Of a stretch of DNA of 64,000 bases, positions 3,473 to 50,977 are shown one piece after another. The stretch is from Mobula hypostoma (taxonomy: Eukaryota): contig NC_086097.1 in NCBI RefSeq assembly GCF_963921235.1, positions 103,480,001 through 103,544,000 on the forward strand, in the 5' to 3' direction. Positions within the stretch are counted from its first letter, which is position 1. Each line of letters starts with the position of its first letter. The position numbers were made by a program, and so were the translations under genes. Under the pieces are notes generated by a model that made no database searches, was not told where the DNA came from, and was given only the letters and a program-made list of their open reading frames with translations.

Positions 3473-6400
3473 ATGTTGCGTAGTTTGCGGGCTGCGGAGT
3501 GAGCCGGGAGCAGAGTGAAGACTTAAGGGCTTCGGCTCACCGGGCTTAGGCGGAAGCGGGCGAGGCGAGGAAGGTTTGACATTCATTTTCTGTTGTTATT
3601 TGAGGAGAGGGGCATTATGAGTGAGAGGGCAGTTTGCTGTTCTCGGTGTCGGATGTGGGAGGCCCTGGAGTCTCCAAGCCTCCCGGACGTCTACATCTGT
3701 GCCAAGTGCATCGAGATGCAGCTCCTAAGGGACCGCGTTACGGAACTGGAGCTGCAGCTCGATGACCTTCGTCTGGTCAGGGAGAGTGAGGAGGTGATAG
3801 AGAGGAGTGGAAGGCAGGTGGTCACGCCGGGGCCACGGGAGGCAGACAAGTGGGTCACGGTTAGGAGGGGGAAGGGGAAAAGTCAGGTGATGGGGAGTAC
3901 CCCGGTGGCTGTGCCCCTTAACAATAGGTACTCCTGTTTGAGTACTGTTGGGGGGGACAGCTTACCCGGGGGAAGCGACAGTGGCCGTGCCTCCGGCACA
4001 GAGTCTGGCCCTGTAGCTCAGAAGGTTAGGGCAAGGAAGAGGAGGGCAGTTGTGATAGAGGACTTGATAGTAAGGGGGTCAGATAGGCGATTCTGTGGAC
4101 GCAGTCCAGAGACCCGGATGGTAGTTTGCCTCCCTGGTGCCAGGGTCCGGGATATTTCTGATCGTGTCCAAGATATCCTGAAGTGAGAGGGTGAGGAGCC
4201 AGAGGTCGTGGTACATATAGGTACCAATGACATAGGTAGGAAAAGGGATGAGGTCCTGAAAGGAGAATATAGGGAGCTAGGAAGGGAGTTGAGAAAAAGG
4301 ACCGCAAAGGTAGTAATCTCGAGATTACTGCCTGTGCCACGCGACAGTGAGAGTAGGAATGCGATGAGGTGGAGGATAAATGCGTGGCTGAGGGATTGGA
4401 GCAGGGGGCAGGGATTCAAGTTTTTGGATCATTGGGACCTCTTTTGGCGCAGGCGTGACCTGTACAAAAAGGACGGTTTACACTTGAATCCTAGGGGGAC
4501 CAATATCCTGGCAGGGAGATTAGCAGGGGCTACTGAGGTGACTTTAAACTAGAATGGTTGGGGGGTGGGAATCAAATTAAAGAGGCTAGGTGTGAGGAGG
4601 TTAGTTCACAACAGAGGGATGGGAACCAGTGCAGAGAGACAGAGGGGTGTAAAGTGAGGGTAGAAGCAAAAAGTACAAAGGAGAAAAGTAAAAGTGGCAA
4701 GCCGACAAATCCAGGGCAAGCATTAAAAAGGGCCACTTTTCAACATAATTGTATAAGGGCTATGAGAGTTGTAAAAGAGCGCCTGAAGGCTTTATGTGTC
4801 AATGCAAGAAGCATTCGTAATAAGGTGGATGAATTGAAAGTGCAGATTGTTATTAATGATTATGATATAGTTGGGATCACAGAGACATGGCTCCAGGGTG
4901 ACCAGGGATGGGAGCTCAACGTTCAGGGATATTCAATATTCAGGAGGGATAGACATGAAGGAAGGGGAGGTGGGGTGGCGTTGCTGGTTAAAGAAGAGAT
5001 TAACGCAATAGAAAGGAAGGACATAAGCCGGGAAGATGTGGAATCGATATGGGTAGAGCTGCGTAACACTACGGGGCAGAAGACGCTGGTGGGAGTTGTG
5101 TACAGGCCACCTAACAGTAGTAGTGAGGTCGGAGATGGTATTAAACAGGAAATTAGAAATGTGTGCAATAAAGGAACAGCAGTTATAATGGGTGACTTCA
5201 ATCTACATGTAGACTGGGTGAACCAAATTGGTAAAGGTGCTGAGGAAGAGGATTTCTTGGAATGTATGCGGGATGGTTTTTTGAACCAACATGTCGAGGA
5301 ACCAACTAGAGAGCAGGCTATTCTGGACTGGGTTTTGAGCAATGAGGAAGGGTTAATTAGCGATCTTGTCGTGAGAGGCCCCTTGGGTAAGAGTGACCAT
5401 AATATGGTGGAATTCTTCATTAAGATGGAGAGTGACATAGTTAATTCAGAAACAAAGGTTCTGAACTTAAAGAGGGGTAACTTTGAAGGTATGAGATGTG
5501 AATTAGCTAAGATAGACTGGCAAATGACACTTAAAGGATTGACGGTGGATATGCAATGGCAAGCATTTAAAGATTGCATGGATGAACTACAACAATTGTT
5601 CATCCCAGTTTGGCAAAAGAATAAATCAAGGAAGGTAGTGCACCTGTGGCTGACAAGAGAAATTAGGGATAGTATCAATTCCAAAGAAGAAGCATACAAA
5701 TTAGCCAGAGAAAGTGGCTCACCTGAGGACTGGGAGAAATTCAGAGTTCAGCAGAGGAGGACAAAGGGCTTAATTAGGAAGGGGAAAAAAGATTATGAGA
5801 GAAAACTGGCAGGGAACATAAAAATGGACTGTAAAAGCTTTTATAGATATGTAAAAAGGAAAAGACTGGTAAAGACAAATGTAGGTCCCCTGCAGACAGA
5901 AACAGGTGAATTGATTATGGGGAGCAAGGACATGGCAGATCAATTGAATAATTACTTTGGTTCTGTCTTCACTAAGGAGGACATAAATTATCTTCCAGAA
6001 ATAGTAAGGGACGGAGGAACTGAGCGAAATACATGTTAGTAGGGAAGTGGTGTTAGGGAAGTGGTGTTAGGTAAATTGAAGGGATTGAAGGCAGATAAAT
6101 CCCCAGGGCCAGATGGTCTGCATCCTAGAGTGCTTAAGGAAGTAGCCCAAGAAATAGTGGATGCATTAGTGATAATTTTTCAAAACTCGTTAGATTCTGG
6201 ACTAGTTCCTGAGGATTGGAGGGTGGCTAATGTAACCCCACTTTTTAAAAAAGGAGGGAGAGAGAAACCGGGGAATTATAGACTGGTTAGCCTAACGTCG
6301 GTGGTGGGGAAACTGCTGGAGTCAGTTATCAAGGATGTGATAACAGCACATTTGGAAAGCGGTGAAATGATCGGACAATGTCAGCATGGATTTGTGAAAG

Positions 6401-7679
6401 GAAAATCATGTCTGACGAATCTCATAGAATTTGTTGAGGATGTAACCAGTAGAGTGGATAGGGGAGAACCAGTGGATGTGGTATATTTGGATTTTCAAAA
6501 GGCTTTTGACAAGGTCCCACACAGGAGATTAGTGTGCAAACTTAAAGCACACGGTATTGGGGGTAAGATATTGGTGTGGGTGGAGAATTGGTTAGCAGAC
6601 AGGAAGCAAAGAGTGGGAATAAATGGGACCTTTTCAGAATGGCAGGCGGTGACTAGTGGGGTACCGCAAGGCTCAGTGCTGGGACCCCAGTTTGTTTACA
6701 ATATATATTAATGACTTGGATGAGGGAATTAAATGCAGCATCTCCAAGTTTGCGGATGACACGAAGCTGGGTGGCAGTGTTAGCAGTGAGGAGGATGCTA
6801 AGAGGATGCAGGGTGACTTGGATAGGTTGGGTGAGTGGGCAAATTCATGGCAGATGCAATTTAATGTGGATAAATGTGAAGTTATCCACTTTGGTGGCAA
6901 AAATAGGAAAACAGATTATTATCTGAATGGTGGCCGATTAGGAAAAGGGGAGGTGCAACGAGACCTGGGTGTCATTATACACCAGTCATTGAAAGTGGGC
7001 ATGCAGGTACAGCAGGCGGTGAAAAAGGCGAATGGTATGCTGGCATTTATAGCGAGAGGATTCGAGTACAGGAGCAGGGAGGTACTACTGCAGTTGTACA
7101 AGGCCTTGGTGAGACCACACCTGGAGTATTGTGTGCAGTTTTGGTCCCCTAATCTGAGGAAAGACATCTTTGCCATAGAGGGAGTACAAAGAAGGTTCAC
7201 CAGATTGATTCCTGGGATGGCAGGACTTTCATATGAAGAAAGACTGGATGAACTGGGCTTGTACTCGTTGGAATTTAGAAGATTGAGGGGGGATCTGATT
7301 GAAACGTATAAGATCCTAAAGGGATTGGACAGGCTAGATGCAGGAAGATTGTTCCCGATGTTGGGGAAATCCAGAACGAGGGGCCACCATTTGAGGATAG
7401 AGGGGAAGCCTTTTAGGACCGACATTAGGAAAAACTTCTTCACACAGAGAGTGGTGAATCTGTGGAATTCTCTGCCACAGGAAACTGTTGAGGCCAGTTC
7501 ATTGGCTATATTTAAGAGGGAGTTAGATATGGCCCTTGTGGCTACGGGGGTCAGGGGGTATGGAGGGAAGGCTGGGGCGGGGTTCTGAGTTGGATGATCA
7601 GCCATGATCATAATAAATGGCGGTGCAGGCTCGAAGGGCCGAATGGCCTACTCCTGCACCTATTTTCTATGTTTCTATG
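3473..7679 (+). mobile_element. Near full-length, young CR1 LINE: ORF1 (3617-4552; Zn-finger, leucine zipper, SGNH esterase) and ORF2 (4558-7588; APE endonuclease and RT)
   Basis: ORF1 has CxxC..CxxC, VHIGTND and DGLHLN with one in-frame TGA at 4184. ORF2 has NARS, ITETW, GDFN, SDH, QGSVLGP and FADD. The 3' end is (TTTCTATG)x2. Confidence 0.95.
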
Positions 7680-10600
7680 CCTAATCAGTCTCTGTCTATC
7701 CAAATATTTATATATCTGGTCTCTCAGAGTAACTCCCTCTATTGATGTCAGGTTCACCAGCCTATAATTTCCTGGCTTATTATTAGAGCCTTTATTAAAG
7801 AAACACCTGACCAGGTTCATTTCCCACTACCAGTAATCTCGGGATTACTGCCTGTGCCACCCGACAGTGAGAATAGGAATAGAATGAGGTGGAGGATAAA
7901 TGCGTAGCTGAGGGATTGGAGCAGGGGGCAGGGATTCAGATTTCTGGATCATTTGGACCTCTTTTGGGGCAGGTGTGATCTGTACAAAAAGGACGGGTTG
8001 CACTTGAATCCCAGGGGGACCAATATCCTGGAGGGGAGGTTTGCTAAGGCTACTGCGGAGAGTTTAAACTAGAATTGTTTGGGGGGTGGGAACCAAAGTG
8101 AAGAGACTGGAGAAGAGGAGGTTGGCTCACAAATAGAGAAAGCTTGGAGACAGTGTGTGAGGGAGGATAGGCAGGTGATAGAGAAGGGACGCGCTCAGAC
8201 CAAAAGGTCTGAGATGTGTATTTTAACGCAAGGACTGTTGTGAACAAAGCAGATGAGCTTAGAGTGTGGATCAGTACTTGGTATGATGTGGTGGCCATTA
8301 CAGAGACGTGGATGCCTCAGGGACAGGAATGGTTACTTCAAGTGCCGGGTTTTAGATGTTTCAGAAAGGACAGGGAGGGAGGGAAAAGAGTTGGGGATCA
8401 GAAATAGTGTCACGGCTGCAGAAAAAATGGACGCCATAGAGGGATTGTCTACAGAGTCTCTGTGGGTGGTGGTTAGATACAGGAATGGGTCAATAACTTT
8501 ACTGGGTGTTTTTTATAGGCTGCCCAATAGTAACAGGGATATCGAGGAGCAGATAGGAAAACAAATCCTGGAAAGGTGTAGTAATAATAACAGAGTTGTT
8601 GTGATGGGAGATTTTAATTTCCCAAATATCGATCGGCATCTCCCTACAGCAAGGGGTTTAGATAGGGTAGAGTTTGGTAGGTGTGTTCAGGAAGGTTTCT
8701 TGACACAATATGTAGATATGTAGCCTGTAAGAGGAGAGGCTGTACTTGATTTGGTATTGGGAAATGAACCTGGTCAGGTGTCAGATCTCTCAGTGGAAGA
8801 GCATTCTGGAGATAGTGATCACAATTCCATCTCCTTTACAATAGCATTAGAGAGAGATAGGAACAGACAAGTTAGAAAAGTGTTTAAATGGAGTAAGGGG
8901 AATTATGAGGCTATCAGGCAGGAAATTGGAAGCTTAAATTGGAAACACATGTTCTCAGGGGAAAGTACTGAAGAAATGTGGCATATGTTCAGGGGTATTT
9001 GTGTGGAGTTCTGCATAGGTACGTTCCAATGAAACAGGGAAGTTATGGTAGGGTACAGGAACTGTGGTGTACAAAGGCTGTAATAAATCTGGTCAAGAAG
9101 AAAAGAAAAGCTTACAAAAGGTTCAGAGAGCTAGGTAATGTTAGAGATCTAGAAGATTATAAGGCTAATAGGAAGGAGCTTAAGGAGGAAAGGGGCCATG
9201 ACAGCCAAAAGGGGCCATGAGAAGGCCTTGGCGGGCAGGATTAAAGAAAACCCCAAGGCATTCCAGAAGTATAGGAAGAGCAAGAGGATAAAATGTGAAA
9301 GAATAGGACCTATCAAGTGTGACAGTGGGGAAGTGTGTATGGAACCAGAGGAAATAGCAGAGGTACTTAATGAATACTTTACTTCAGTATTCACTGTGGA
9401 AAAGGATCTTGGTGATTGTAGTGATGACTTGCAGCAGACTGAAAAGCTTGAGCATGTAGATATTAAGAAAGAGGATGTGCTGGAGCTTTTGGAAAGCATC
9501 AAGTTGGATAAGTCACCGGGACCAGATGAGATGTTCCCCAGGCTACTGTGGGAGGTGAGGGAGGAGATTGCTGAGCCTCTGGCAATGATTTTTGCATCAT
9601 CAATGGGAACGGGAGAGGTTCCAGAGGATTGGAGGGTTGCAGATGTTGTTCCTTTGTTCAAGAAAGGGAGTAGAGATAGCCCAGCAAATTATAGACCAGT
9701 GAATCTTACCTCAATGGTTGGTAAGTTGATGGAGAAGATCCTGAGAGGCAGGATTTATGAACATTTGGAGAGGTGTAATATGATTAGGAATAGTCAGCAT
9801 GGCTTTGTCTCACGGGCCTGATTGAATTTTTTGAGGATGTGACTAAACACATTGATGAAGGAAGAGCAGTAGGTGTAGTGTATATGGATTTCAGCAAGGC
9901 ATTTGAGAAGGTACCCCATGCAAGGCTTATTGAGAAAGTAAGGAGGCATGGGATCGAAGGGGACATTGCTTTGTGGATCCAGAACTGGCTTGCCCACAGA
10001 AGACTAAGAGTGGTTGTAGACGGGTCATATTCTGCATGGAGGTCAGTCACCAGTGGAGTGCCTCAGGGATCTGTTCTGGGACCCTTATTCTTCATGATTT
10101 TTATAAATGACCTGGATGAGGATGTGGAGGAATGGGTTAGTAAATTTGCTGATGACACAAAGGTTGGAGGTGTTGTGGATAGTATGGAGGGCTGTCAGAG
10201 GTTACAGTGGGACATTGATAGGATGCAAAACTGGGCTGAGAAGTAGCAGATGGAGTTCAACCCAGGTAAGTGTGAAGTGGTTCAGTTTGGTAGGTCAAAT
10301 ATGATGGCAGAATATAGTATTAATGGTTAGACTCTTGCCAGTGTGGAGGATCAGAGGGATCTTGGGGTCCGAGTCCATAGGACGCTCAAAGCAGCTGTGC
10401 AGGTTGACTCTGTGGTTAAGAAGGTGGATTAGCCTTCATCAATCGTGGGATTGAATTTAGGAGCCGAGAGGTAACGTTGCAGCTATGTAGGACCCAGGTC
10501 AGGCCCCACTTGGAATACTGTGCTCAGTTCTGGTCACTTCACTACAGGAAGGATGTGGAAGCCACAGAAAGGGTGCAGAGCAGATTTACAAGGATGTTAC

Positions 10601-10923
10601 CTGGATTAGGGAGCATGCCTTATGAAAATAGGTTGAGTGAACTTGGCCTTTTCTCCTTGGAGTGACAGAGGATGAGAAGCATTGATTGTGTGGATAGTCA
10701 GAGGCTTTTTCCCAGGGCTGAAATGGTTGCCACAAGAGGACATATGTTTAAGGTCCTGGGGAGTAGGTACAGAGGAAATGTCAGGGGTAAGTTTTTAACT
10801 CAGAGAGTGGTGAGTGCGTGGAATGGGCTGCCGGCAACGGTGGTGGAGGCGGATACGATAGGGTCTTTTAAGAGAGTCCAGGATGGGGACATGGAGCTTA
10901 GAAAAATAGAGGGCTATAGGTAA

Positions 10924-11705
10924 TTCAGGGCCCCAAACAGTCCTTCCAGATGAGGCAACACTTCACCTGTGAGTCGACTGGGGTGATATACTGCGTCCGG
11001 TGCTCCCGATGTGGCCTTCCATATATTGGCGAGACCCGACGCAGACTGGGAGACCGCTTTGCTGAACATCTACGCTCTGTCCGCCAGAGAAAGCAGGATC
11101 TCCCAGTGGCCACACATTTTAATTCCACATCCCATTCCCATTCTGACATGTCTATCCACGGCCTCCTCTACTGTAAAGATGAAGCCACACTCAGGTTGGA
11201 GGAACAACACCTTATATTCCATCTGGGTAGCCTCCAACCTGATGGCATGAACATCGACTTCTCTAACTTCCGCTAAGGCCCCACCTCCCCCTCGTACCCC
11301 ATCTGTTACTCATTTTTATGCACACATTCTTTCTCTCACTCTCCTTTTTCTCCCTCTGTCCCTCTGAATATACCTCTTGCCCATCCTCTGGGTCCCCCAC
11401 CCCCTTGTCTTTCTTCCCAGACCTCCTGTCCCATGATCCTCTCATATCCCCTTTTGCCTATCACCTGTCCAGCTCTTGGCTCTATCCCTCCCCCTCCTGT
11501 CTTCTCCTATCATTTTGGATCTCCCCCTCCCCCTCCAACTTTCAAATCCCTTACTCACTCTTCCTTCAGTTAGTCCTGACGAAGGGTCTCGGCCTGAAAC
11601 GTCGACTGCACCTCTTCCTACAGATGCTGCTTGGCCTGCTGCGTTCACCAGCAACTTTGATGTGTGTTGCTTGAATTTCCAGCATTTGCAGAATTCCTGT
11701 TGTTT
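10924..11705 (+). mobile_element. 5'-truncated Penelope-like element (Neptune type): GIY-YIG endonuclease and terminal repeat
   Basis: ORF 10950-11276 reads GVIYCVRCSRCGLPYIGETRRRLGDRFAEH...EQHLI. Flanked by a perfect 13-bp TSD GGGCTATAGGTAA (10911-10923 and 11706-11718). Confidence 0.92.
11572..11607 (+). ncRNA. Minimal type I hammerhead ribozyme motif in the Penelope terminal repeat
   Basis: AGTC-CTGACGA-A-GGGT(CTCG)GCCT-GAAA-CG-TC-GACT. Core boxes are intact, helix I is AGTC/GACT, helix III is the palindromic ACGT, and the predicted cut is after C11603. Confidence 0.8.
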
Positions 11706-12349
11706 GGGCTATAGGTAAGCCTAGTAATTTCTAAGGTAGGGACATGTTTGGCACAACTTTGTGGGCCGAAGGGCCTGTATTGTGCTGTAGGGTTTCTATG
11801 TTTCTAAACAACACGAGCTATCCTCCGGCATCAGCTCTTAGTCCCCCTCCAGTTGCCAGCAACCGCCCATCTGTACCAGTCCCACCTTCCCTGGAAGAGA
11901 GCCCAATGATCTAAAAACCTGAAGCCCTCACTCCTGCACCATTTCCTTACCCATGTGTTAAACTAGAATTTTCTTATTTCTGGCCTCACTAGCATGAGTA
12001 GCAATTCTGAGATCATAACCCAAGAATGGGGGCAGGGGCAGCAGAGGCAAGGAAGCCTATGAAGGATAAATAAACCAAATGACTCTAGGCCATAGCAGAA
12101 GTGTTCCAGGAGAACTGTGCGAACGACTTACTCTGTACTAGTACAGCGTCACCACCTACTGGGAATAGTATCATGGGATTAAGAAGTTCTGCAAATATAG
12201 ACTTAGAGATGACAGGATAGACTGTGGATAGATTCTCATTGATGATTTTAGGCAAAGGCACTGTATGCAAAGCGAAAAAATCAAACCAATGGGTTGAAAT
12301 CTGGAACTTTTAAAGACATTGAAGTTCAGCAATTAATTTATAAATTCTG

Positions 12350-18987: not shown

Positions 18988-21900
18988 TCTTTTGGATCAG
19001 GACTACAGAGCGTCGTGGGAGCTGAATTCTGAAGGAAGGCAGTTTTCTTAAAAACTTCTTCGAGTGCAAGAAGGACGAGACTGCGCAGGCGCGTGACGTC
19101 AACAGGACAGCTTGGAGAGTTTAAAAAGGAGACCACCCTATACAGCGGGCAGCAGAGTGAGCAGTAGCAGAGTGTAGGGCTTTGGCTTCAACGGGCTTCG
19201 GCGGTAAACGGAAAGAGGCGAGAGCGAAGCACCAACTCTTTTTTCCTCCACCCCGCCCCCTTTCGCGAATCGGCCCGGACAGACAGGAACAGCAGGGCTC
19301 TCACAGCTAACGGTACGAGCTAACAGTTTAAAAAGTTCATCTGTTTGGTAAGGTAAGTGGGTGAGTAGACTTATTTTTCCTGTTTCATTCCTGTAGAATT
19401 AGGTAGAATGCCTGCAGGGTTAATGCTTTGTTCAGGGTGTCAGATGTGGGAATCCAGCCTCCCTGATGGCCACATCTGCGCCAGGTGCACCGAGATGCAG
19501 CTCCTCAGAGACTGTGTTAGGGATCTGCAGCTGCAGCTTGATGACCTACTGCTTATCAGGGAAAGTGAAGAGGTAATAGACAGGAGCTACAGGGAGGTAG
19601 TCATCCCTAGGCTACAGGGATCAGAAAACTGGGTCACTGTCAAGAGAGGGAAGGGAAATGCCCGGATAGTGGAGAGCACACCTGTGGCTGTCCCCCTCAG
19701 CAACAAATATCTTGTTCTGGATGCTGTTGAGGGGGATGACCTGACAGGGGACGCCCACGGTGACTGGGTCTCTGGCACTGAGCCTGGCGCTGTTGTGCAG
19801 GAGAGAAGGAGGGAGAAGAGGAATGCGGTAGTCATAGGGGATTCCATAGTCAGGGGAACAGACAGGAGATTCTGTGAGCCTGACAGAGATACCCACATGG
19901 TGTGTTTGCCTCCCAGGTGCCAGGGTACGGGATGTCTCGGATCGGGTCCTGAATATTCTAAAGGGGGAGGGTGAGCAGCCAGTTGTCTTGGTACATGTTG
20001 GTACCAATGACATACATAGGACAAACGAGGAGGTCCTGAAGAGAAATTTCTGGGAGTTAGGAAGGAAGCTGAGAAGCAGGACCTCCAGGGTAGTAATCTC
20101 GGGATTGCTACCTCTGCCACGTGCTAGCGAGGGCAAGAATAGTAGGATCAGGCAGATGAATGCGTGGCTGAGAGACTGGTGCAGGGGACAGGGCTTCAGA
20201 TTCTTGGATAATTGGGATCTCTTCTGGGGGAAGTATGACCTGTTCAAAAAGGACAGGTTACACCTGAACCCGAAGGGGACCAATATCCTGGCGGGAAAGT
20301 TTAATAGAGCTGTTAGGGAGGGTTTAAACTAATTTGGCAGGGGGATGGGAACCGGAATGACATAACAGAGGAAGGGGAAAACAGAAATAAATCTAAGATA
20401 GTGAGCAGTAAAGATGTCAGGAAAGGCAGGCAGGTGACGGAGCAAATTTGTAGCCATTGGGATGAGTTGCAGTGCAATAAAGTTGCAGTGAAATCAAAGC
20501 GAAAAGTACCAAATACCGGTCTTAAGGTGTTATACTTAAATGCACGCAGCATAAGGAATAAGGTGGATGATCTTGTCGTACAGCTACAGATTGGCAGGTA
20601 TGATATTGTGGCTAAAGGATGCACGTCTCTGGGAGCTGAACATCCAAGGATACACAGTGTATCGGAAGGATAGGAAGGTAGGCAGAGGGGGAGGCGTGGC
20701 TTTATTGGTAAGAATTGATATTAAATCATTAGAAAGAGGTGATATAGGATCGAAAGGCGCAGAATCTTTATGGGTTGAGCTAAGAAATCGCAGGGGTAAA
20801 AGGACCCTGATGGCAGTTATTTATAGGCCTCCAAACAGCTGCAGGGATGTGGACTTCAAATTACAACAGAAAATAGAAAAGGCTTGTCAGAAGGGCAGTG
20901 TTATGATAATTGTGGGGAATTTAAACATGCGAGTAGATTGGGAAAATCAGGTCGGCACTGGATCTCAAGAGAGAGGATTTGTAGAATGTCTGCGAGATAG
21001 CTTTTTAGAACAGCTTGTTGTTGAGGCCACCAGGGGATCGGCTGTACTGGATTGGATATTGTGTAATGAACCGGAGGTGATTAGAGAGATTGAGGTGAAG
21101 GAACCCTTAGAAGGCAGTGATCATAACATGATTGAGTTCACTGTGAAATTTGAAAAGGAGAAGCCAAAATCTGATGTGTCGGTATTTCAGTGGAGTAAAG
21201 GAAATTACAGTGGCATGAGAGAGGAACTGGCCAAAGTTGACTGGAAAGAGACACTGGTGGGAAAGACGGCAGAGCAGCAGTGGCTGGAGTTTATGCGAGA
21301 AGTGAGGAAGGTGCAAGACAGGTATATTCCAAAAAAGAAGATATTTTCGAATGGGAAAAGCATGCAACCGTGGTTGACAAAAGAAGTCAAAGCCAAAGTT
21401 AAAGCAAAGGAGAGGGCATACAAGGAAGCAAAAATTACTGGGAAGACAGAAGATTGGGAAGTTTTTAAAACCTTACAAAAGGAAACTAAGAAGGTCATTA
21501 AGAGAGAAAAGATTAACTATGAAAGGAAGCTAGCAAATAATATCAAAGTGGATACTAAAAGCTTTTTCAAGTATATAAAGAGTAAAAGACAGGTGAGATT
21601 AGATATAGGACCAATAGAAAATGATGCTGGAGACATTGTAATGGGAGATGAGGAGATGGCAGAGGAACTGAACGAGTATTTGCATCAGTCTTCACTGAGG
21701 AAGACATCAGCAGTATACCGGACACTCAAGGGTGGCAGGGAAAAGAAGTGTGCGCAGTCACGATTACGACAGAGAAAGTACTCAGGAAGCTGAATAGTCT
21801 AAAGGTAGATAAATCTCCCGGACCAGATGGAATGCACCCGCGTGTTCTGAAGGAAGTAGCTGTGGAGATTGCGGAGGCATTAGCGATGATCTTTCAAAAG

Positions 21901-23354
21901 TCGATAGATTCTGGCATGGTTCCGAAGGACTGGAAGATTGCAAATGTCACTCCGCTTTTTAAGAAGGGGGCAAGGAAGCAAAAAGGAAATTATAGACCTG
22001 TTAGCTTGACATCGGTGGTTGGGAAGTTGTTGGAGTCGATTGTCAAGGATGAGGTTACAGAGTACCTGGAGGCATATGACAAGATAGGCAGAACTCAGCA
22101 TGGATTCCTTAAAGGAAAATCCTGCCTGACAATCCTATTACAATTTTTTGAGGAAATTACCAGTAGGCTAGACAAGGGAGATGCAGTAGATGTTGTATAT
22201 TTGGATTTTCCGAAGGCCTTTGACAAGGTGCCACACATGAGGCTACTTAACAAGATAAGACCCCATGGAATTACGGGGAAGTTAGATACGTGGATAGAGC
22301 ATTGGCTGATTGGCAGGAAACAGAGAGTGGGAATAAAGGGATCCTATTCTGGTTGGCTGCTGGTTACCAGTGGTGTTCCACAGGGGTCTGTGTTGGGGCT
22401 GCTTCTTTTTACAAATAGATGGCTTTGTGGCTAAATTTGCTGACGATACGAAGATAGGTGGAGGGGCCGGTAGTGCTGAGGAAACACAGAGTCTGCAGAG
22501 AGACTTGGATAGATTGGAACAATGGGCAGAGAAGTGGCAAATGAAATACAACGTTGGAAAGTGTATGGTTATGCACTCTGGCAGAAGAAATAAACGGGCA
22601 GACTATTATTTAAATGGGGAAAGAATTCAAAGTTCGGAGATGCAACGGGACTTGGGAGTCCTCATACAGGATACCCTTAAGGTTAACCTCCAGGTTGAGT
22701 CAGTAGTGAAGAAGGCGAATGCAATGTTGGCATTCATTTCTAGCGGAATAGAGTATAGGAGCAGGGATGTGATGTTGAGGCTCTATAAGGCGCTGGTGAG
22801 ACCTCACTTGGAGTACCGTGGGCAGTTTTGGTCTCCTTATTTAAGAAAGGATGTGCTGACGTTGGAGAGGGTACAGAGAAGATTCAGTAGAATGATTCCA
22901 GGAATGAGAGGGTTAACATATGAGGAACGTTTGTCTGCTCTTGGACTGTATTCCTTGGAGTTTAGAAGAATGAGGGGAGACCTCATAGAAACGTTTTGAA
23001 TGTTGAAAGGCATGGACAGAGTGGATGTGGCAAGGTTGTTTCCCATGATGGGGGAGTCTAGTACGAGAGGGCATGACTTAAGGATTGAAGGACACCCATT
23101 CAGAACAGAAATGCGAAGAAATTTTTTTAGTCAGAGGGTGGTGAATCTATGGAATTTGTTGCCATGGGCAGCAGTGGAGGCCAAGTCATTGGGTGTATTT
23201 AAGGCAGAGAGGTATCTGAGTAACCAGGGCATTAAAGGTTTTGGTGAGAAGGCGGGGGAGTGGGACTAAATGGGAGAATAGATCAGCTCATGATAAAATG
23301 GCGGAGCAGACTCAATGGGCCGAATGGCCGACTTCTGCTCTGTTGTCTTATGGT
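18988..23354 (+). mobile_element. Full-length CR1 LINE of a third subfamily, with GC-rich 5' UTR and frameshifted ORF1 and ORF2, inserted into a Rex1-like element
   Basis: ORF1 19408-20332 (CSGC..CARC, GDS, HVGTND). ORF2 fragments 20401-23269. CAATA is repeated at 18983-18987 and 23355-23359. Confidence 0.93.
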
Positions 23355-27223: not shown

Positions 27224-27333
27224 GCACTATACTGTTAGTCCTGTCGAAGGATCTCGGCCTGAAACGTCGACTGTGCTTCTTCCTATGGATGCTGTCTGGC
27301 CTGCTGTGTTCCACCAACATTTTGTGTGTGTTG
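27224..27333 (+). mobile_element. 110-bp Penelope terminal-repeat mini-insertion containing the hammerhead motif (core A6 mutated)
   Basis: AGTCCTGTCGAAGGATCTCGGCCTGAAACGTCGACT. Flanks CAAGAAACTGTAA and CCAGAGACTGTAA match at 11/13. Confidence 0.75.
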
Positions 27334-30285: not shown

Positions 30286-31218
30286 CTAACAAGAGAAAAT
30301 CTGCAGATGTTGGAAATCCAAGCAACACAATCAAAATGCTGGAGGAACTCAGCAGGTCAGGCAACATCTATAGAAAAGAGTAAACAGTTGACGTTTCAAG
30401 CTGAGACCCTTCATCAGGACTGGAGGAAAAAAAAGATGAGGAAACAGAGTAAGAAGGTGGGGGGAGGGGAGGAAGAAACATAAGATGATAGGTGAAACCG
30501 GGAGGGTTGGGGGAGGGGTGATGTAAAGAGCTGGGAAGTCAATTGGTGAAGAGATAATGGGCTGAAGTACCTCCTCCCTCACTACCATTCAAGGCCTCCT
30601 TCCAGATGAGGCAACACTTCATCTGTGAGTCTGTAAGGGTCATCTATTATATTTGGTGCTCCCAGTGTGGCCTCCTGTATAATCGGTGAGACCCGACGTA
30701 AATTGAGGGACCGCTTAGCCGAGCACCTTCCAGAAAAAGTGGGATCTCCCAGTGGCCATCCATTTTAATTCTACTCCCATTCCGACATGTCAGTCCATGG
30801 TCTCAAACCTGATGGCATGAACACTGATTTCTCGAACTTCTAGTAATGCCCCTCCCCGACTTCACCATTTCCCATTCCCATTTCCCTCTCTCATCTTATC
30901 ACCTTCCCTGCCCATCAGCTCCCTCTGGTGTTCCTCCTCCATGGCCTCTGTCCTCTCCTATCAAATTACCTCTTCTCCAGCCTTTGATCTCTTTCACCAA
31001 TCAACTCCCCAGCTCTTTACCTCATCCTTCCCTCCCTCAGTTTCAATTATCACCTACTACCTTGTATTTGTTCCTGCCCTTTTCCCACCTTCTTACTCTG
31101 ACATAATCTTTTTTCTCCAGTCCCGATGAAGGGTCTCGGCCCAAAATGTCAACTGTACTCTTTTCCATAGATGCTGCCTGGCCTGCTGAGTTCGTCAGCA
31201 TTGTGTGTGTGTGTTGCT
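30286..31218. mobile_element. Inverted (two-armed) Penelope insertion within a CR1 fragment (30014-31740)
   Basis: A minus-strand terminal repeat at 30286-30566 is followed by plus-strand GIY-YIG remnants and a terminal repeat ending at 31218. The CR1 sequence resumes on both sides. Confidence 0.8.
30386..30421 (-). ncRNA. Hammerhead ribozyme motif on the STARD9 sense strand
   Basis: Reverse complement AGTC-CTGATGA-A-GGGT(CTCA)GCTT-GAAA-CG-TC-AACT. Core is intact, with one mismatch in helix I. Confidence 0.65.
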
Positions 31219-33215
31219 TAGGATATTGTATTCAGTTTGGTCACCTCATTGTGGAAAGGTTGTGAAAGCTTCAGAAAGGGTCCAATAGGTATTTACCAAG
31301 ATGCTGCCTGGACTAGAGGACGTTTCTTATGAAGATACTTAGAGTGAGCTAGGCTGTTTGTCTTTGGAGCAAAGGAGAATGGGAGGGGACTGAGAGAGGT
31401 ATACAAAATTAGAAGACAAATAGATTGAGTGGATAGCCAGAGACTTCCGTCCAGGATGGAAATGCCTAATACAAGGGGACATAGTTTTAAGGTCATTGGA
31501 GGAAAGTAAAGGGAGGATGTCAGGGGTAACTTCTTTGCACAGAGAGTTGTGACGGTGTGGAATGCCCTGCCAGGATTTTGGGTAGAGGCAGACAAATTTG
31601 GGGCATTTAAGAAATTCTTCGATAGGCACATGGATGATATAAAAATGGAGGATTATGTATGAGGGAAGAATTAGATTGATAGGTTAAAGGGTCAGCACAA
31701 CATCATGGTCATAAAGGCCTGTACTGTGCTCTGACTGTACTCTGCCTTATCAAAGTGAATCACTTCACACTTCTCCACATTTAACCCCTTCTGCCACTTC
31801 TCAGCACAGCTCTGCGTCCTAACAAAGACCCGTTGAAACCTAAACAACCTTTTGAACTATCCACGACATCAATGACCTTTGTATGATCTGCAAACTCATT
31901 GATCTATCCCTCTAGTTGCTCTTCTAAATCATTTATTAAGATGATAAAGAGCAGGGGTCCCAGAACAGACCAGGCAGAACATGACGGGTCATAGATTTCC
32001 ATGCCATTCTGAACCAGTCACACCCCTTTTCACATCAGTGGCACAGCAGTAGAAACTGCCTGCATGTTTCAGTCTCCTGATCTTGTATATCTCATGGTCC
32101 TAGAACACATCCTACACAGTTAAGAATGCTCACCAATGTCCAATTTCTAAGAAGGCTGAAGCGAGCTGGACTATGCACATCAATACTCACAACCTTTTGC
32201 AGATGGGCAGTCGATAGTATCCTAATTTGTCTTCCGGTAAGAGGGCAGCACGCCTGGTTACAGCAGCCTCTCTGGGTCTAAACAAACATGTAATTGTTTG
32301 TCCTTTATATCTCTCTTATGATCACAAGACTCTGCTGGATATTAAGAATATCAAGTACTGCAGATCAACCCCATCAGTGAGGTGCTTGATAACAACGGAG
32401 CTGGATTTGTTGTGAATCATGTTGCTGCTTCATACAGCCACCCAAGGAAGAAGGTGTCAGAGGTGGTGCAAAGTCCAACAAACAGTGCAATGATGATCTT
32501 GGATGTTTCTTTTGTGATCACAAACCCTGTCAAACATTTGCAATGTAGAATACTACAAGTCCCATTCACTGTTTCATTGTCAAGACTGATGGGGTGAAGA
32601 AGCACAGACCAGACCCCCATGCTGCAAGGTTGCCTGTTACAGCTGCCTAGGGGATGAGAAGACAAAGGCGGTGAGGTGCAGCGGGAAACATGCTGGGCTG
32701 GGAGCTGGCCCTCTAGTGTTTCCTTGGTGGAAGACAAGCTGTGCTGTGTTCGACTGCAGCTGCAGAGTGCGAGATGAGGAACTGCTGCTGCTTCTTGCAG
32801 AAAACGTGGCTCCAGGACATTACCAATCGAGGGGCCATGACATTCAGGGATGGGCTCTATTTTGTTTTGGGTTTGTACGTTTTACTGCTATTGTAATTAT
32901 ATGTGCTGTGTGTGACTGTTGGTTCTGTTTTTGCACCACAACCCGGGAGGAATGCTGTTTTGTTTGGCTGTATTCATGGGTATTCATGTACAGCTGCAAG
33001 AAAAAGTTTGGGAACCCTTTGCAATTACCTGATTTTCTGCATTAATTACCCATAAAATGGGTTTTATCTTCATCTCGGTCACAATAATAGACAAACACAA
33101 ATTGACTACACTAATAACACACAAACAATTGCATTTCTTCTCGTCAATACTGAGTACACCATTTAAACAATCACATTTTAGGTTCAAAAGCGCATGTGAA
33201 CCTCTGGGGTAATGC

Positions 33216-36355: not shown

Positions 36356-36482
36356 CAAAAACAACAGGAATTCTGCAGATGCTGGAAATTCAAGCAACAT
36401 ACATCAAAGTTGCTGGTGAACGCAGCAGGCCAGGCAGCATCTCTAGGAAGAGGCGCAGTCGACGTTTCAGGCCGAGACCCTT
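36356..36482 (-). mobile_element. Penelope terminal fragment inserted in the Tc1 transposase, truncated inside the hammerhead
   Basis: Nearly identical to the reverse complement of 11582-11705. Confidence 0.85.
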
Positions 36483-38946: not shown

Positions 38947-39057
38947 GGAAGAGAAATGGCCTACTGAAGGGCGTTGGTCCGAAATGTCGATTGTACTCTT
39001 TTCCATTGTTGCTGCCTGGCCTGCTGAGTTCCTCCAGCATTTTGTGTGCGTTGCTTG
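38947..39057 (+). mobile_element. ~111-bp decayed Penelope terminal-repeat mini-insertion
   Basis: GAAGGGCGTTGGTCCGAAATGTCGATTG...GCTGCCTGGCCTGCTGAGTTCCTCCAGCATTTTGTGTG. Degenerate flanking repeats CATGCATCCAC and TATCCATCTAC. Confidence 0.65.
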
Positions 39058-39717
39058 TATCCATCTACCACTACTCTCTGACTCCCATCTCCAAGCCAAG
39101 GCCTTACTCTACTCAAATCCATGACTCCGTTAATCTTTGTTACCTCCTCACAAAATTCACTCATTGGTGAAAACCTGCGGTTACTCAGCACAACAGCCTT
39201 CTGTTCTATTCACAATCACAAGGTACTTCTAAATTACAAATCACCTGGTTGTATCTGATACACAAAAAGGAAACCAGGTGCTCTAACGCAAAAATCATGA
39301 CTCCAGTGTTGTATAACTTCTTACTGTGCATAGTTTTAAAAAAATGTACTTAAATCCACATTTCCATTTTCAGTTGTATTTTCCAGAACAAGCATTCAAT
39401 GGAGTATCGTTAAGGTAGATGCAAAATGTGACACAATTTGAAGAGAAGCTAGGGCCCAATATTTTATTTCACAGTGATGGTCTCGCATCTTGCTGAATGC
39501 TTACCACAGTATCTAGACATCACTGCCTCAGAGTTTCTGATGTGTACCAAGGTCACTTTGTTACTTTTGTCTGTTTTATCAATTACAAGATGTTGACTGG
39601 GGAGACTGCCTTCCCACATACAGAGAATGAACCAGTATTGGGACTGTGGGAAATCTGGCATTTTATCTACATAGAGACAAAAATATTGAGTTCTTGTCAC
39701 CCAGCGCATGTTCTGAC

Positions 39718-44534: not shown

Positions 44535-45854
44535 CTTTTGCAATGTTCATTAAAAAAAATATTTGTTTCCACATTTTTAATATATTACAATAAACACCAA
44601 TACTTGTAGTGATTAATATAGTTAGACTGCATTACAGCTGTTGATTCAGAGTTTATGAGTACAGCCTTATTAAGGTGCACGACAGTTGTTATGAGTATCT
44701 TTGGTTATGAACAAAATCCCTCTAATCACAGGCATTGAAAAAAATCACCTTGGTGGCAGCCAATCTTTCACTGCAACCACACGTAAACATGGTTTAGACT
44801 GAATACTGTACTAAGCAAATAGATTATTTGTTTCAGTGCAGAAATCTGTAAAAGTGAATGGACCAGTGTCTGTGTGAGAAAATTGACAATCTGGAGTATG
44901 TGTTATCAGGCAGTCATTTTGGTCAGAGAGAAATAGTATTCCTAGAGTGCGAGAGGGCAGGATCCTTAAGGGGATGATATCAGGAAGTAGATCTTCATGA
45001 AAAGGTATGGGAAATGTGGAGCTCTCTCCCACCAAAATCTGTGGCAGTGAGATGGTTGGAAGTCAAGAAAAGCAATCTGAGATTCGATTTTATTTGGCAT
45101 TGAAATGTATGTAATTTAACCAAGTGGAGCAGTGAGGACAGAAGCATCCATAATCTAACTGATAGTGGGATGAGCTCAAGGGGTTGAGTACTATTCCTAT
45201 GCTCCCTTTTATTGACAGTTACAGTTTGACTGTAGGGAGCAGCATTACTAAAGTACGGCATTTAGAAAGAATGTACACATAATGAGGAAATCTTAAGAAC
45301 ACAATGCTCAAGATACTTCTATTACAGAAAGGTCTAAAGAAGCTGTCGTAAACATCCTTTGGGCTGTAAGTCTCCAGCAGCTCAGCAAATCCCTTAGAAA
45401 ATGCAAGGTTAGAAAGCAGAAAGAAATAAACAGGGCTCTCTGCTGTCGGTGGTTGTGATGTTTGACCCATTTGCCCTTACATGTCATACAAATGAAGCCA
45501 AACAGCAATGTCTAGAATGATCAAGACTCAATGTAATGAAGATTCTGGTGGCACATGAACTGAGGCAAGATCGAGCTAGTGTCACAGAAGCAAAAGAAAC
45601 CTTCAGTTATGGTGTGAAAAGTCACAAGTTATCTGGAGTCAATTATGATAATAATTGAAGTATTTTATTTCAGTATTTACCAAGAAAAAGGTCACGGAAA
45701 CCCGGAGGTCAGTGCTGAGTACATAAATACGTTAGGCCGTTTAGAGGTCAAGGAGGAGGAAGTGTTGGGTCTCCTATTTAATATTCAGATGGATAAGTCC
45801 CTAGGGCCTGTTGGGATCTATCCCAGGTTATTGATGGAGACAGGAGACAAGATT

Positions 45855-48682
45855 CACACATAAAAGTTGCTGGTGAACGCAGCAGGCCAGGCAGAATCTC
45901 TAGGAAGAGGTACAGTCAATGTTTCGGGCCGAGACCCTTCGTCAGGACTAACTGAAAGAAGAGCTAGTAAGAGATTTGAAAGTGGGAGTGGGAGGGGGAG
46001 ATCCACAATGATAGGAAAAGACAGGAGGGGGAGGGATGAAGCCAAGAGCTGGAAAGTTGATTGGCAAAAGGGATATGAAAGGATCATGGGACGGAAGGCC
46101 TAGGGAGAAAGAAAGGAGGAGGGGGGAATCCCAGAGGATGGGCAAGGAGTATAGTGAGAGGGACAGAGGGAGAAAGAGGGACAGAGGGAGAGGGAGAGGG
46201 AGGAGAGGGAGAGGGAGGAGAGAGAGAGAGAGAGAGAGAGAGAAAATATATATAATAATAAATAAATAATGGATGGGGTACGGAGGGGAGGTGGGGCATC
46301 AACGGAAGTTAGAGAAGTCAATATTCATTCCATCAGGTTGGAGGCTACCCAGACAGAATATACGGTGTTGTTCCTCCAACCTGTTCATCTTTACAGTAGA
46401 GGAGGCCGTGGATAGACATATCAGAATGGGAATGGGACGTGGAATTAAAACGTGTGGCTACGGGGAGATCCTGCTTTCTCTGGTGGACAGAGCATAGGTG
46501 TTCAGCGAAACGGTCTCCCAGTCTGCGTTGGGTCTCGCCAATATATAGAAAGCCGCATTGGGAGCACCAGACGCAGTATATCAACCCAGCCGACTCTCAG
46601 GTGAAGTGTCGCCTCACCTGGAAGGACTGTCTGGGGCCCTGAATGGTGGTGAGGGAGGAAGTGTAAGGGCATGTGTAGCACTTGTTCCGCTTACAAGGAT
46701 AAGTGCCGGGAGGGAGATCAGTGGGAAGGGATGGGGGGGGGGAAACGAATGGACAAGGGAGTGATCCCTGCGGAAAGCAGAGAGAGGGGAGGGAAAGATG
46801 TGCTTAGTGGTGGGATCCTGTTGGAGGTGGCTGAGGTTATGGAGAATTATATGTTGGACCCGGAGGCTGGTGGGGTGGTAGGTGAGGACAAGGGGAACCC
46901 TATTCCTAATGGGGTGGCGGGAGGATGGGGTGAGAGCAGATGTGCATGAAATGGAAGAGATGTGTTTGAGAGCAGAGTTGATGGTGGAGGAAGGGAAGCC
47001 CCTTTCTTTAAAAAAGGAGGACATCTCCTTCATCCTGGAATGAAAAGCCTCATCCTGAGAGCAGATGCGGCGGAGACGGAGGAATTGCGAGAAGGCATTT
47101 TTGCAAGCAACAGGGTGAGAAGAGGAATAGTCCAGATAGCTGTGAGAGTCAGTAGGCTTATAATAGACATCAGTAGATAAGCTGTCTCCAGAGATAGAGA
47201 CAGAAAGATCCAGAAAGGGGAGGGAGATGTCAGAAATGGACCAGGTAAACCTGAGGGCAGGGTAAAGTTGGAGGCAAAGTTAATAAAGTCAACGAGCTCA
47301 GCATGCGTGCAGGAAGCAGCACCAATGCAGTCTTCGATGTAGCAAAGGAAAAGTGGGGGACAGATACCAGTATAGGCTTGGAACATGGATTGTTCCACAA
47401 AGCCAACAAAAAAGCAGGCATAGCTGGGACCCATAGGGGTGCCCATGGCTACACCTTTAGTTTGGAGGAAGTGGGAGGAGCCAAAGGAGAAATTATTAAG
47501 AGTAAGGACCAATTCCGCTAGACGGAGGAGAGCGGTCGTAGACGGGAACTGGTTAGGTCTGGAATCCAAAAAGAAGTGGAGAGCTTTGAGACCTTCCTGG
47601 TGGGGGATGGAAGTATATAGGGACTGAACATCCATGGTGAAAATACCACCCCACCAGCCTCCGGGTCCAACATATAATTCTCCGTAACTTCTGCCACCTC
47701 CAACGGGATCCCAACACTAGGCACATCTTTCCCTCCCCCCTTCTCTCTGCTTTCTGCAGGGATCACTCCCTGAGCGACTCCCTTGTCCATTCGTCACCCC
47801 CATCCCTTCCCACTGATCTCCCTCCCGGCACTTATCCTTGTAAGCAGAACAAGTGCTACACATGCCCTTACACTTCCTCCCTCACCACCATTCAGGGCCC
47901 CAGACAGTCCTTCCAGGTGAGGCGACACTTCACCTGTGAGTCGGCTGGGGTGATATACCGCGTCCGGTGCTCCCAATGTGAACTTCTATATATTGGTGAG
48001 ACCCAACGCAGACTGGGAGATCATTCTGCTGAACACCTACACTCTGTCTGCCAGAGAAAGCAGGATCTCCCAGTGGCCACACATTTTAATTCCACATCCC
48101 AAAACCATTCTGATATATCTATCCACGGCCTCCTCTACTGTAAAGATGAAGCCACACTCAGGTTGGAGGAACAACACCTTATATTCCGTCTGGGTAGCCT
48201 CCAACCTGATGGCATGAACATTGACTTCTCTAACTTCCGTTAATGCCCCACCTCCCCTTCGTACCCCATCCGTTATTTATATATATATATATAAATATAT
48301 ATTTTTTCTCTCTCTCTCTCTTTTTCTCCCTCTGTCCCTCTCACTATACACCTTGCCCATCCTCTGGGATTCCCCCCTCCTCCCTTCTTTCTCCCAAGGC
48401 CTCCCGTCCCACGATCCTCTCATATCCCTTTTAGCACTCAACTTTCCAGCTCTTGGCTTCATCCCTCCCCTCCTGTCTTCTCCTATCATTTCGGATCTCC
48501 CTCTCCCCCTCCCACTTTCAAATCTCTTACTATCTCTTCTTTCAGTTAGTCCTGACGAAGGGTCTTGGCCCAAAATGTCGACTGTACCTCTTCCTATAGA
48601 TGCTGCCTGGCCTGCTGTGTTCACCAGCAACTTTTATGTGTGTTGCTTGAAATTCCAGCATCTGCAGATTTCCTTGTGTTTG
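45855..48682. mobile_element. Neptune-type Penelope insertion with an inverted duplication: minus arm (RT, Zn-linker, GIY-YIG, terminal repeat; 45855-47643) and plus arm (47644-48682)
   Basis: MDVQSLYTSIP, GVAMGTPMGPSYA, YIED (mutated YIDD), CKQNKCYTC and GVIY...YIGET. Perfect 13-bp TSD AGGAGACAAGATT (45842-45854 and 48683-48695) inside a CR1 host. Confidence 0.92.
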
Positions 48683-48695
48683 AGGAGACAAGATT

Positions 48696-50870: not shown

Positions 50871-50977
50871 AAGGTGGCCAGCAGGTTATCCCTGATTCAT
50901 TGGCTGTCAGTGACATTGGAATCAGTTTCTAAATCACTCCACTACTTATTCAGCTTTGAACTGCTTCTTTCACTTAC

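What the first reader, a model, noticed from the sequence alone, without database searches (positions are those of the whole stretch)
11572..11607. Intact minimal hammerhead ribozyme in a Penelope terminal repeat, with related copies across the window
Seen: AGTC CTGACGA A GGGT-CTCG-GCCT GAAA CG TC GACT, a type I hammerhead with both conserved core boxes, a 4-bp helix I, a tetraloop helix II, an extra A after A9, and helix III reduced to the palindrome ACGT. Related copies are at 27237-27272 (+), 30386-30421 (-), 31119-31154 (+), 36457-36482 (-, partial), ~38960-38992 (+), 45914-45949 (-) and 48548-48583 (+). Established: Penelope-like elements carry minimal hammerheads that cleave as dimers through the palindromic helix III. 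Inference: this lineage has a high-copy, recently active ribozyme-bearing Neptune family. About eight copies in 64 kb would make self-cleaving RNA motifs very abundant genome-wide if this window is typical.
Basis: partly seen in the sequence, partly recalled or inferred. Interest (0 to 1): 0.72.

Follow-up and report, generated by a model that had tools for sequence, protein, structure and literature searches.

The report
Penelope hammerhead; stubs skip cut site
This is a real copy of the tiny, predicted self-cutting RNA motif already known from Penelope-type jumping genes, present tens of thousands of times in what is likely a shark or ray genome; about 40% of sampled insertions begin at the motif's front edge and very few at its predicted cut site, so these short copies were likely made from uncut RNA.

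Summary
Confirmed. 11572-11607 is a minimal type I hammerhead in the terminal repeat of a 5'-truncated Neptune-type Penelope-like element (10924-11705, 13-bp target duplication). The kind is published (PMC4209133). The genome holds 45,476 exact copies, an estimated 70,000-95,000 structurally intact motifs and about 650,000 remnants. Corrections: the eight listed motifs are six insertions, and only this one keeps core, stems and palindrome. I found no compensatory covariation, and the predicted monomer fold is an inactive rod. They are 100/135-bp stubs with abutting target duplications. None of 13 long copies that cross an upstream hammerhead stops there. Likely reading: stubs are run-offs from an uncut RNA starting at helix I, and long copies use another template. 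One subfamily carries an A6C core. Cleavage is untested. The scan already noted the stub clustering on this and other genomes.

The parts
11572..11607 (+). Minimal type I hammerhead motif: helix I 11572-75/11604-07 (possible fifth wobble pair 11571/11608), core CTGACGA 11576-82, unpaired A11583, helix II 11584-95, GAAA 11596-99, palindrome ACGT 11599-11602, predicted cut after C11603
10924..11705 (+). 5'-truncated Neptune-type Penelope-like insertion (-677 to about +102 relative to the predicted cut) inside the 3' end of a LINE (CR1-like; label recalled)
10926..11276 (+). C-terminal 116 codons and stop of the ORF: GIY-YIG endonuclease with internal CxxC
   Evidence: PF01541 E=2.6e-4, just under the curated cut-off
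11277..11571 (+). Pyrimidine-rich part of the pseudo-LTR, ending in initiator-like motifs at 11566-11576 (consensus recalled)
11608..11705 (+). Downstream pLTR and ~35-nt optional tail; family 3' ends cluster at +65-69 and +101-108
10911..10923 (+). Left 13-bp target-site duplication
11706..11718 (+). Right 13-bp target-site duplication
27234..27332 (+). Short stub (-35 to +65); core change at A6
30288..31219 (.). Older head-to-head arrangement holding the motifs at 30386-30421 (-) and 31119-31154 (+), both damaged
36359..36482 (-). Young stub (-22 to +102) lacking the 5' core
38960..39060 (+). Old degenerate stub
45855..48682 (.). One head-to-head insertion: (-) arm -1695..+63 with RT remnants and motif 45914-45949; (+) arm -923..+103 with linker and endonuclease remnants and motif 48548-48583; 13-bp TSD at 45842-45854 and 48683-48695

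Best explanation
This is the minimal hammerhead motif in the terminal repeat of a young, very abundant Neptune-type Penelope-like retrotransposon; it likely cuts only in the source element's RNA (as a dimer or with the element's protein), and this lone truncated copy is likely inert. The element's protein likely starts reverse transcription at two internal sites about 67 and 102 nt after the predicted cut, as shown in vitro for the anole element. About 40% of insertions are 100/135-bp stubs ending at the first bases of helix I. They are likely run-offs from an uncut RNA whose 5' end lies there. My odds for what makes that end: transcription start at an initiator-like motif about 0.5, exonuclease-trimmed end at the folded or protein-bound motif about 0.25, other about 0.25. 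Long and tandem copies cross the same spot without stopping, so they likely come from a different, longer or circular template. Shown: anatomy, counts, end positions, target duplications. Inferred: internal initiation here, the nature of the 5' end, any cleavage.
For: Full elements have pLTR(hammerhead)-ORF-pLTR(hammerhead) with motifs about 3.5 kb apart (L044, L048; L050 about 3.7 kb). [quoted passage not shown] Homologs begin at the Met 138 nt past the cut, so an RNA starting at -32 holds the whole ORF. 3' ends are bimodal, about 35 nt apart, like the tail that marks two RT start sites in PMC11167929. 5' ends: 66 of 163 events at -45..-19 (37 at -36..-28) and 7 at -3..+3; young subfamily 18 of 46 against 1 of 46. 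Genome-wide, 26,973 of 88,903 copies (30%) lose the consensus base 16 nt upstream of an anchor at -23, against 4,933 of 118,486 (4.2%) for the 16-nt window over the cut. The two classes catch about 3/4 and 1/2 of junctions, so roughly <=40% against <=8%. The junctions are real: upstream flanks are not the pyrimidine tract (1 of 46 stubs >=70% pyrimidine against 54 of 55 long copies); TSD score >=9 in 18 of 36 junction-selected loci against 4 of 1,260 mismatched pairs, and 13 of the 18 abut the junction. The motif is under constraint in source lineages: 29-33 of 36 identical between four subfamily consensuses against 34-61% upstream; core 4/692 against flank 298/7047 mismatches when subfamily columns are kept.
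Against: No RNA evidence for any end and no cleavage assay. No extra G before 100 listed exact -32 junctions (A 38, C 31, G 31, hand count), which gives no support for a capped end. 0 of 19 copies that run more than 1 kb into the ORF start at -45..-19 (13 pass upstream, 6 start downstream); a simple one-promoter model predicts full-length copies starting at -32. TSD support in the unselected sample is weak: young 3 of 10 (control 0 of 72), old 2 of 35 (control 8 of 272). Local alignment overextends inverted pairs to -40/-41, blurring the peak. No compensatory pair changes; downstream sequence is sometimes as conserved as the motif (38/65 to 57/62). A subfamily with A6C spread (26 of 100 listed), and A6C strongly lowers Mg2+ cleavage in other hammerheads (PMC7151607), so catalysis may not be what is selected. 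The folds are no more stable than shuffles (z -0.3 to -1.2).
Confidence: 0.65

Rival explanations
1. One reading: an abundant family of functional self-cleaving RNAs that cut as dimers through the ACGT palindrome and process the transposition template.
For: Core, extra base after A9, G10.1-C/U11.1 pair and palindrome match the published consensus (PMC4209133, parts 1-2 read). The core is spared among source lineages. Two same-strand motifs flank full elements. About 10 of the 100 listed purine-class junctions fall exactly at the cut (hand count, several duplicated).
Against: Ends at the cut are rare (7 of 163; an estimated 1% of copies). The modelled dimer hammerhead is -11.5 against -22.0 for two rods and -30.3 for the cofold minimum. 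The tandem partners are 3.5 kb apart. Published monomers were inactive and dimers weak (PMC4209133); in the anole element cleavage needed protein and was dispensable for insertion in vitro (PMC11167929).
Confidence: 0.2
2. The stubs end at -32 because the reverse transcriptase stops, or the cDNA folds back, at the foot of the hammerhead hairpin, not because the RNA ends there.
For: The peak coincides with the 5' base of the predicted rod. Many junctions are head-to-head inversions joined at short microhomologies. No cap-G.
Against: 0 of 13 long copies that reach the upstream hammerhead stop there (binomial p=0.002-0.01 for a stop rate of 0.39-0.3). An RT moving 3' to 5' would meet the hairpin at +4, not at -32 (inference).
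Confidence: 0.12
3. The pyrimidine tract and AG before helix I are a splice acceptor (as in Drosophila virilis, where the intron ends at helix I), and the stubs are spliced products joined to upstream exons.
For: There is an acceptor-like sequence at -36..-31. Junctions pile up after AG and G (hand reading). D. virilis precedent (PMC4209133, PMC2377424 passages).
Against: The TSD abuts the junction in 13 of 18 TSD-bearing loci, leaving no room for an exon, and non-inverted upstream flanks share no sequence.
Confidence: 0.05
4. The stubs are an independent SINE-like or retrozyme family that re-transposes from its own copies.
For: Uniform size, TSDs and very high copy number. Animal retrozymes are proposed PLE derivatives (bioRxiv 10.64898/2026.07.22.740005).
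Against: Ends vary from copy to copy (5' -36..-22; 3' at both tail ends), and stubs occur in both young and old subfamily types. They are single or head-to-head, not head-to-tail arrays. They lack ORF sequence, which the anole protein needed on its RNA (first 172 nt of the ORF, PMC11167929).
Confidence: 0.08

Closest known systems
Minimal type I hammerheads (min-HHR) in pLTRs of metazoan PLEs, including fish Xena, Poseidon and Neptune (Cervera and De la Pena 2014, PMC4209133)
   Same: Both core boxes, an extra base between 9 and 10.1, G10.1-C/U11.1, a 4-5 bp helix I, palindromic 15.2-16.2 with no loop 3; one motif per pLTR; mostly single copies, some in nearby opposite-strand pairs.
   Different: Helix II is only 4 bp (7-8 bp in the Schistosoma families). 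The count is roughly 10 times the paper's Xenopus (about 9,000) and coelacanth (about 4,000) figures. The young motif is nearly invariant. No cartilaginous fish was found in the parts I read or in 2 searched supplements (file 1 could not be searched). Clustering of 5' ends at helix I is not described in the parts read.
Neptune-clade EN+ Penelope-like elements (Craig et al. 2021, PMC8557442)
   Same: RT, CX2-5CxxC linker, C-terminal GIY-YIG with internal CxxC, partial tandems forming pLTRs, inverted 5'-truncated arms, a 30-40 bp tail.
   Different: Clear 9-17 bp TSDs in ordinary sequence rather than microsatellite targets. An insertion of about 100 aa, rich in Pro and Ser, in the N-terminal region relative to five homologs. 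Not placed on a tree with named Neptune references.
Poseidon element PAc of Anolis carolinensis (Frangieh et al. 2024, PMC11167929)
   Same: Two 3' end classes one tail apart; head-to-head arms consistent with both strands being extended; uncut RNA appears to be the template.
   Different: Different clade. Here the inferred initiation sites (+67, +102) lie before the ATG (+138), whereas in PAc the ORF starts within the hammerhead and initiation is 111-118 nt inside the ORF.
Animal non-LTR retrozymes (PMC7229834; bioRxiv 10.64898/2026.07.22.740005)
   Same: Short non-coding hammerhead-bearing sequences related to PLE pLTRs, at very high copy number (axolotl up to 120,000).
   Different: Retrozymes are head-to-tail tandem arrays, mostly with canonical hammerheads and circular RNAs. 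These stubs are solitary or head-to-head with a minimal motif.

Membership tests
PLE minimal hammerhead (min-HHR) | Core boxes CUGANGA and GAAA, and UH cleavage triplet | tested here: met
PLE minimal hammerhead (min-HHR) | Short helix I, extra base after A9, G10.1-C11.1 pair | tested here: met
   4-5 bp helix I; A11583; G-U here and G-C in many copies
PLE minimal hammerhead (min-HHR) | Helix III reduced to a palindrome at 15.1-16.1 | tested here: met
   ACGT 11599-11602
PLE minimal hammerhead (min-HHR) | Located in both pLTRs of a PLE | tested here: met
   L044, L048, L050
PLE minimal hammerhead (min-HHR) | Compensatory covariation in helices | tested here: inconclusive
   Only one-sided changes (G-U/G-C at 10.1-11.1; U-G/C-G at the fifth helix I pair) among 4 subfamily consensuses. 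In runs of organisms D and E the outer helix I 3' base differs in most contigs with no listed partner change.
PLE minimal hammerhead (min-HHR) | Self-cleavage as a dimer or with protein | not testable with these tools
   Needs an assay; folding predicts an inactive rod for the naked monomer
Rfam hammerhead families | Match to a covariance model | tested here: not met
   No hammerhead hit at E<=5 in the window; the motif lacks helix III and loops
EN+ Penelope-like element | Single ORF with RT (DKG motif) and C-terminal GIY-YIG with internal CxxC | tested here: met
   (Pfam scores below curated cut-offs)
EN+ Penelope-like element | Partial tandems, inverted arms, 30-40 bp tail | tested here: met
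Neptune clade | CX2-5CxxC linker between RT and EN (shared with Nematis, absent in Poseidon) | tested here: met
   CX4CX2C in L044 and in all five aligned homologs; definition from PMC8557442 passages
Neptune clade | RT phylogeny groups with named Neptune rather than Nematis | not tested
   No named references on hand; only Neptune and Poseidon were reported in vertebrates (bioRxiv 10.64898/2026.07.22.740005)
Non-LTR retrozyme | Head-to-tail tandem arrays of short hammerhead units | tested here: not met
   Sampled short copies are solitary or head-to-head; no genome-wide array search was run

The most novel reading that the evidence does not exclude
The element uses two templates. A linear primary RNA that starts on the first base of the hammerhead is copied from the internal start sites into 100/135-bp stubs, making tens of thousands of ribozyme insertions as by-products. 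Long and more-than-unit copies are made from an endless template, a circle cut and rejoined at the hammerhead, which leaves no scar at the cut site and no stop at -32. The genome would then be a fossil readout of the PLE cycle and would give the hammerhead a defined job.
Probability: 0.25. Interest if true: 0.65.

Novelty: new member of a known kind. Interest (0 to 1): 0.38.

Why it matters
The motif itself is expected in a Penelope-like element. What is useful is the scale: with roughly 90,000-120,000 young copies, insertion ends can be read statistically. They show that the commonest product begins at the hammerhead's first base and spans an uncut cleavage site, while long products ignore that position. 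The role of PLE hammerheads is stated as unclear in PMC8557442 and was dispensable in vitro in PMC11167929. These data name a precise RNA 5' end and a precise circle junction to look for, in a family with uninterrupted ORFs. The A6C subfamily is a natural test of whether catalysis matters. If 5'-end mapping finds nothing, this remains an ordinary, very abundant repeat.

Tried and rejected
Rfam scan: no hammerhead hit; one unrelated weak miRNA match. RNA evidence: no RNA holder listed on record; 23 runs, all contigs. Laying 8 of the 23 runs cannot show RNA ends, strand or level; X5 is probably DNA; among listed joints (some not shown) one had GT at its start and none had GT..AG ends; not used for or against expression. 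The first reference-free 5'-end mapping was confounded by shared inverted arms and was replaced. An apparent excess conservation of the core among 26 young copies (1/260 against 50/1924) did not hold in 77 copies once subfamily columns were removed (4/692 against 69/6288, p=0.24), so decay after insertion looks neutral. The dimer energy used a crossing structure and is invalid; it was redone. Shared rare variants between the two repeats of three tandem elements: 0, 1 and 2, within the control range, inconclusive on circle versus genomic tandem. Cap-G test negative. The host gene was not identified: no Pfam hit, no START match near the window, no Atlas hit. A6C loci could not be cut out, so that subfamily's age and ORFs were not examined beyond a 3-copy cluster. 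Literature searches gave no paper on this family or on 5' ends clustering at the hammerhead, judged from listings and the passages read. The library lacks most subscription papers, and Repbase/Dfam entries could not be checked. bioRxiv supplements and supplement file 1 of PMC4209133 were not seen and may list a cartilaginous fish motif; the text supplements of PMC11167929 held none of my terms and its figures are not held.

Full report
Coordinates. Positions such as -32 or +102 are relative to the predicted cut, with the first base after C17 (G11604) as 0; the first base of helix I (A11572) is -32.

1. Observation. The motif is at 11572-11607 as written and the seven other motifs exist. It is not chance: 13 descriptor hits in 530 kb (12 of this family) against 0-2 in five shuffles; 31 strict hits in 1.13 Mb against 0 on reversed sequence; 45,476 exact 34-nt matches in the 3.48-Gb genome against 0 for the reversed pattern. 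Rfam does not detect it. In the window only 11572 keeps core, both helices and the palindrome; 45949 (-) passes without the palindrome. The eight motifs are six insertions, two of them head-to-head pairs.

2. What it sits in. Upstream is a 116-codon GIY-YIG end. The insertion spans 10924-11705 between 13-bp direct repeats, in the 3' end of a LINE. An RT query gave 37,234 candidates and several frames of 1,040-1,058 codons. Of 20 long-frame loci fetched, three (L044, L048, L050) are partial tandems with a hammerhead on each side of the ORF; their repeats are 226, 523 and 922 nt at 96-99% identity. The protein has an RT match, a DKG motif, a CX4CX2C linker and a GIY-YIG with CxxC; five homologs align along it and two begin at the matching Met, at +138. 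By the definitions in PMC8557442 (passages read) the linker excludes Poseidon; no tree was made. The closest named homologs are from Chiloscyllium punctatum at 68-72%, so the host is likely a cartilaginous fish. The focal copy is 95.4-97.6% identical to the 20 RT-selected loci.

3. Abundance. The sample is 113 stretches of 10 kb at round-number positions on large contigs (113 of 140 asked for; not formally random). A profile that excludes the hammerhead found 212 hits, about 650,000 per genome (Poisson 566,000-741,000). Intact motifs: about 95,000 (65,000-129,000), or 71,000 (43,000-102,000) with the palindrome. PMC4209133 gives about 4,000 for coelacanth and 9,000 for Xenopus; PMC7229834 gives up to 120,000 retrozymes for axolotl.

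4. Is the motif under selection? Four subfamily consensuses (30, 3, 5 and 5 of 60 long copies; 17 singletons left out) share 29-33 of 36 positions, against 34-61% upstream and 58-92% downstream. Differences fall on N7, loop 2, position 11.1 (G-U or G-C), position 17 (C or U) and the fifth helix I pair; two small clusters also show probable CpG decay. There is no two-sided compensatory change. Among 77 copies found without using the motif, the core has 4/692 mismatches against 298/7047 in flanks (p=2e-8) with subfamily columns kept, but 69/6288 (p=0.24) with them removed. So source lineages spare the core and inserted copies decay neutrally. One exception: 26 of 100 listed matches (1,601 in all) to an older-type pattern have C at core position 6, against 1 with G (hand count). 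A6C cut Mg2+ activity by orders of magnitude in other hammerheads (PMC7151607, passages read). In contigs of four other organisms the changes within the motif at >=15% were N7, 11.1, CpG sites and, in two organisms, the outer helix I base.

5. Would it cut? The naked 38-mer is predicted to fold as a rod in which the 5' core pairs with the palindrome (-11.0 kcal/mol, 43% of the ensemble) rather than as a hammerhead (-7.0). The strand-swapped dimer scores -11.5 against -22.0 for two rods. These models omit tertiary contacts and protein. They agree with no monomer and weak dimer activity in PMC4209133 (parts 1-2 of 4 read) and with protein-dependent cleavage in PMC11167929 (parts 1-2 of 4 read). 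Whether this copy is transcribed is unknown.

6. Where insertions begin and end. Of 199 anchored copies (of 221 profile hits, window included), the sample gave 167 events, 163 after dropping 4 cut by a locus edge. 5' ends: 40 beyond -300, 16 at -300..-101, 14 at -100..-46, 66 at -45..-19, 10 at -18..-4, 7 at -3..+3, 10 at +4..+40. Young subfamily: 18 of 46 in the peak and 1 at the cut. Genome-wide counts agree: 30% against 4.2% non-consensus letters for 16-nt windows over the 5' edge and over the cut. By hand, the 100 listed junction-class matches peak at -32 (15), -31 (12) and -33 (9), with a smaller group at -35/-36 (10); 11 were older-type copies that continue upstream. About a quarter of the list are point mutants. 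2,025 copies have an exact -32 junction under a filter that passes about 3 in 8. The ends are real insertion junctions: the flank is not the pyrimidine tract, and in 60 junction-selected loci, 36 distinct ones not flagged as inverted (7 of them proved to be inverted) gave TSDs of 9-17 bp in 18 cases against 4 of 1,260 controls, abutting the junction in 13. TSD support in the unselected old copies was not above control. 3' ends cluster at +65-69 and +101-108. 23 of the 167 events are head-to-head pairs of short arms. Three of the window's six insertions are such stubs; the focal copy is a long one.

7. Mechanism. Taking internal initiation from PMC11167929, an RNA with its 5' end at -32 gives exactly 100- and 135-nt run-offs that span an uncut cleavage site. 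Extension of both nicked strands would give the head-to-head pairs (inferred). The sequence at -32 and -36 fits initiator consensus motifs (recalled), D. virilis Penelope has an internal promoter in its pLTR (PMC2377424, passages read), and the ATG lies 170 nt downstream. Against this: no extra G, and of 30 loci (of 392 exact matches) holding the pLTR-ORF junction, the 19 that run more than 1 kb into the ORF never start in the peak, while 5 of the 11 shorter ones do. The loci reach only 1.5 kb, so full length is not shown. This result argues against an RT stop at the hairpin and also shows that long copies use RNAs that begin further upstream or have no end. A hammerhead-made circle, proposed in PMC4209133, would fit; so would read-through multimers. 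The test I could run did not separate them. A splice-acceptor origin of the stubs is rejected by the abutting TSDs.

8. Comparison and novelty. It is a member of the published min-HHR class in a Neptune-type PLE; cleavage is untested and covariation inconclusive. I found no paper on this family or on the 5'-end peak in eight searches. Other papers seen: bioRxiv 10.64898/2026.07.22.740005 (parts 1 and 3 of 5 and passages; one chondrichthyan was sampled and had retrozymes), PMC3846280, PMC6155905 and PMC7229834 (passages). The scan's own unreviewed notes report the same family and the same 5'-end clustering on this and other genomes. My reading was written before I opened them and they are not independent support.

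9. Verdict. A real feature and a new member of a known kind. Interest 0.38, carried by the end statistics and the A6C subfamily rather than by the motif.

Noticed in passing
window 50974-61275 (-): A stop-free frame of 3,433 codons, probably one giant host exon. No Pfam or Atlas hit. From recall it resembles the large exon of the kinesin STARD9/KIF16A; not confirmed, and no START match lies near the window.
   Followed up: partly
G000, pattern; 3-copy cluster: An older subfamily with C in place of core A6, about a quarter of 1,601 exact matches: a natural A6C variant that still spread.
   Followed up: partly
random-sample loci including L073, L113, L127 (5-copy cluster): A separate low-divergence subfamily (6% from its consensus) with a different loop 2, U at position 17 and a possible 6-bp helix I.
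   Followed up: partly
L045, L047, L055, L060; window 45855-48682: Long head-to-head insertions with inverted arms of up to 2.9 kb and 13-bp TSD in the window case.
   Followed up: partly
G000:C2:157816723-157817369 and C2:122542762-122543050: The pLTR-ORF junction repeats at 310-bp (three times) and 262-bp (twice) spacing: short head-to-tail arrays that could be retrozyme-like.
   Followed up: no
L224, L225, L230, L232, L234, L245: Six of 30 junction-containing copies end at +248 to +320, inside the ORF start: possibly a third, rarer RT start region.
   Followed up: no
one search list, e.g. G000:C1:4371156-4371213 and C1:5747702-5747759: Some head-to-head inversions turn exactly at the GTCGAC palindrome that overlaps the predicted cut.
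   Followed up: no
   Followed up: partly
window 3527-10930 and 19369-23000 (+): Several nested, decayed LINEs with an endonuclease/exonuclease/phosphatase domain and RT-like frames; the focal element interrupts the 3' end of one.
   Followed up: no
L044 3088-3168: The reading frame is open for 27 codons upstream of the likely start Met, back into the tail; L050 and L051 carry a duplication of the Pro/Ser-rich segment.
   Followed up: no
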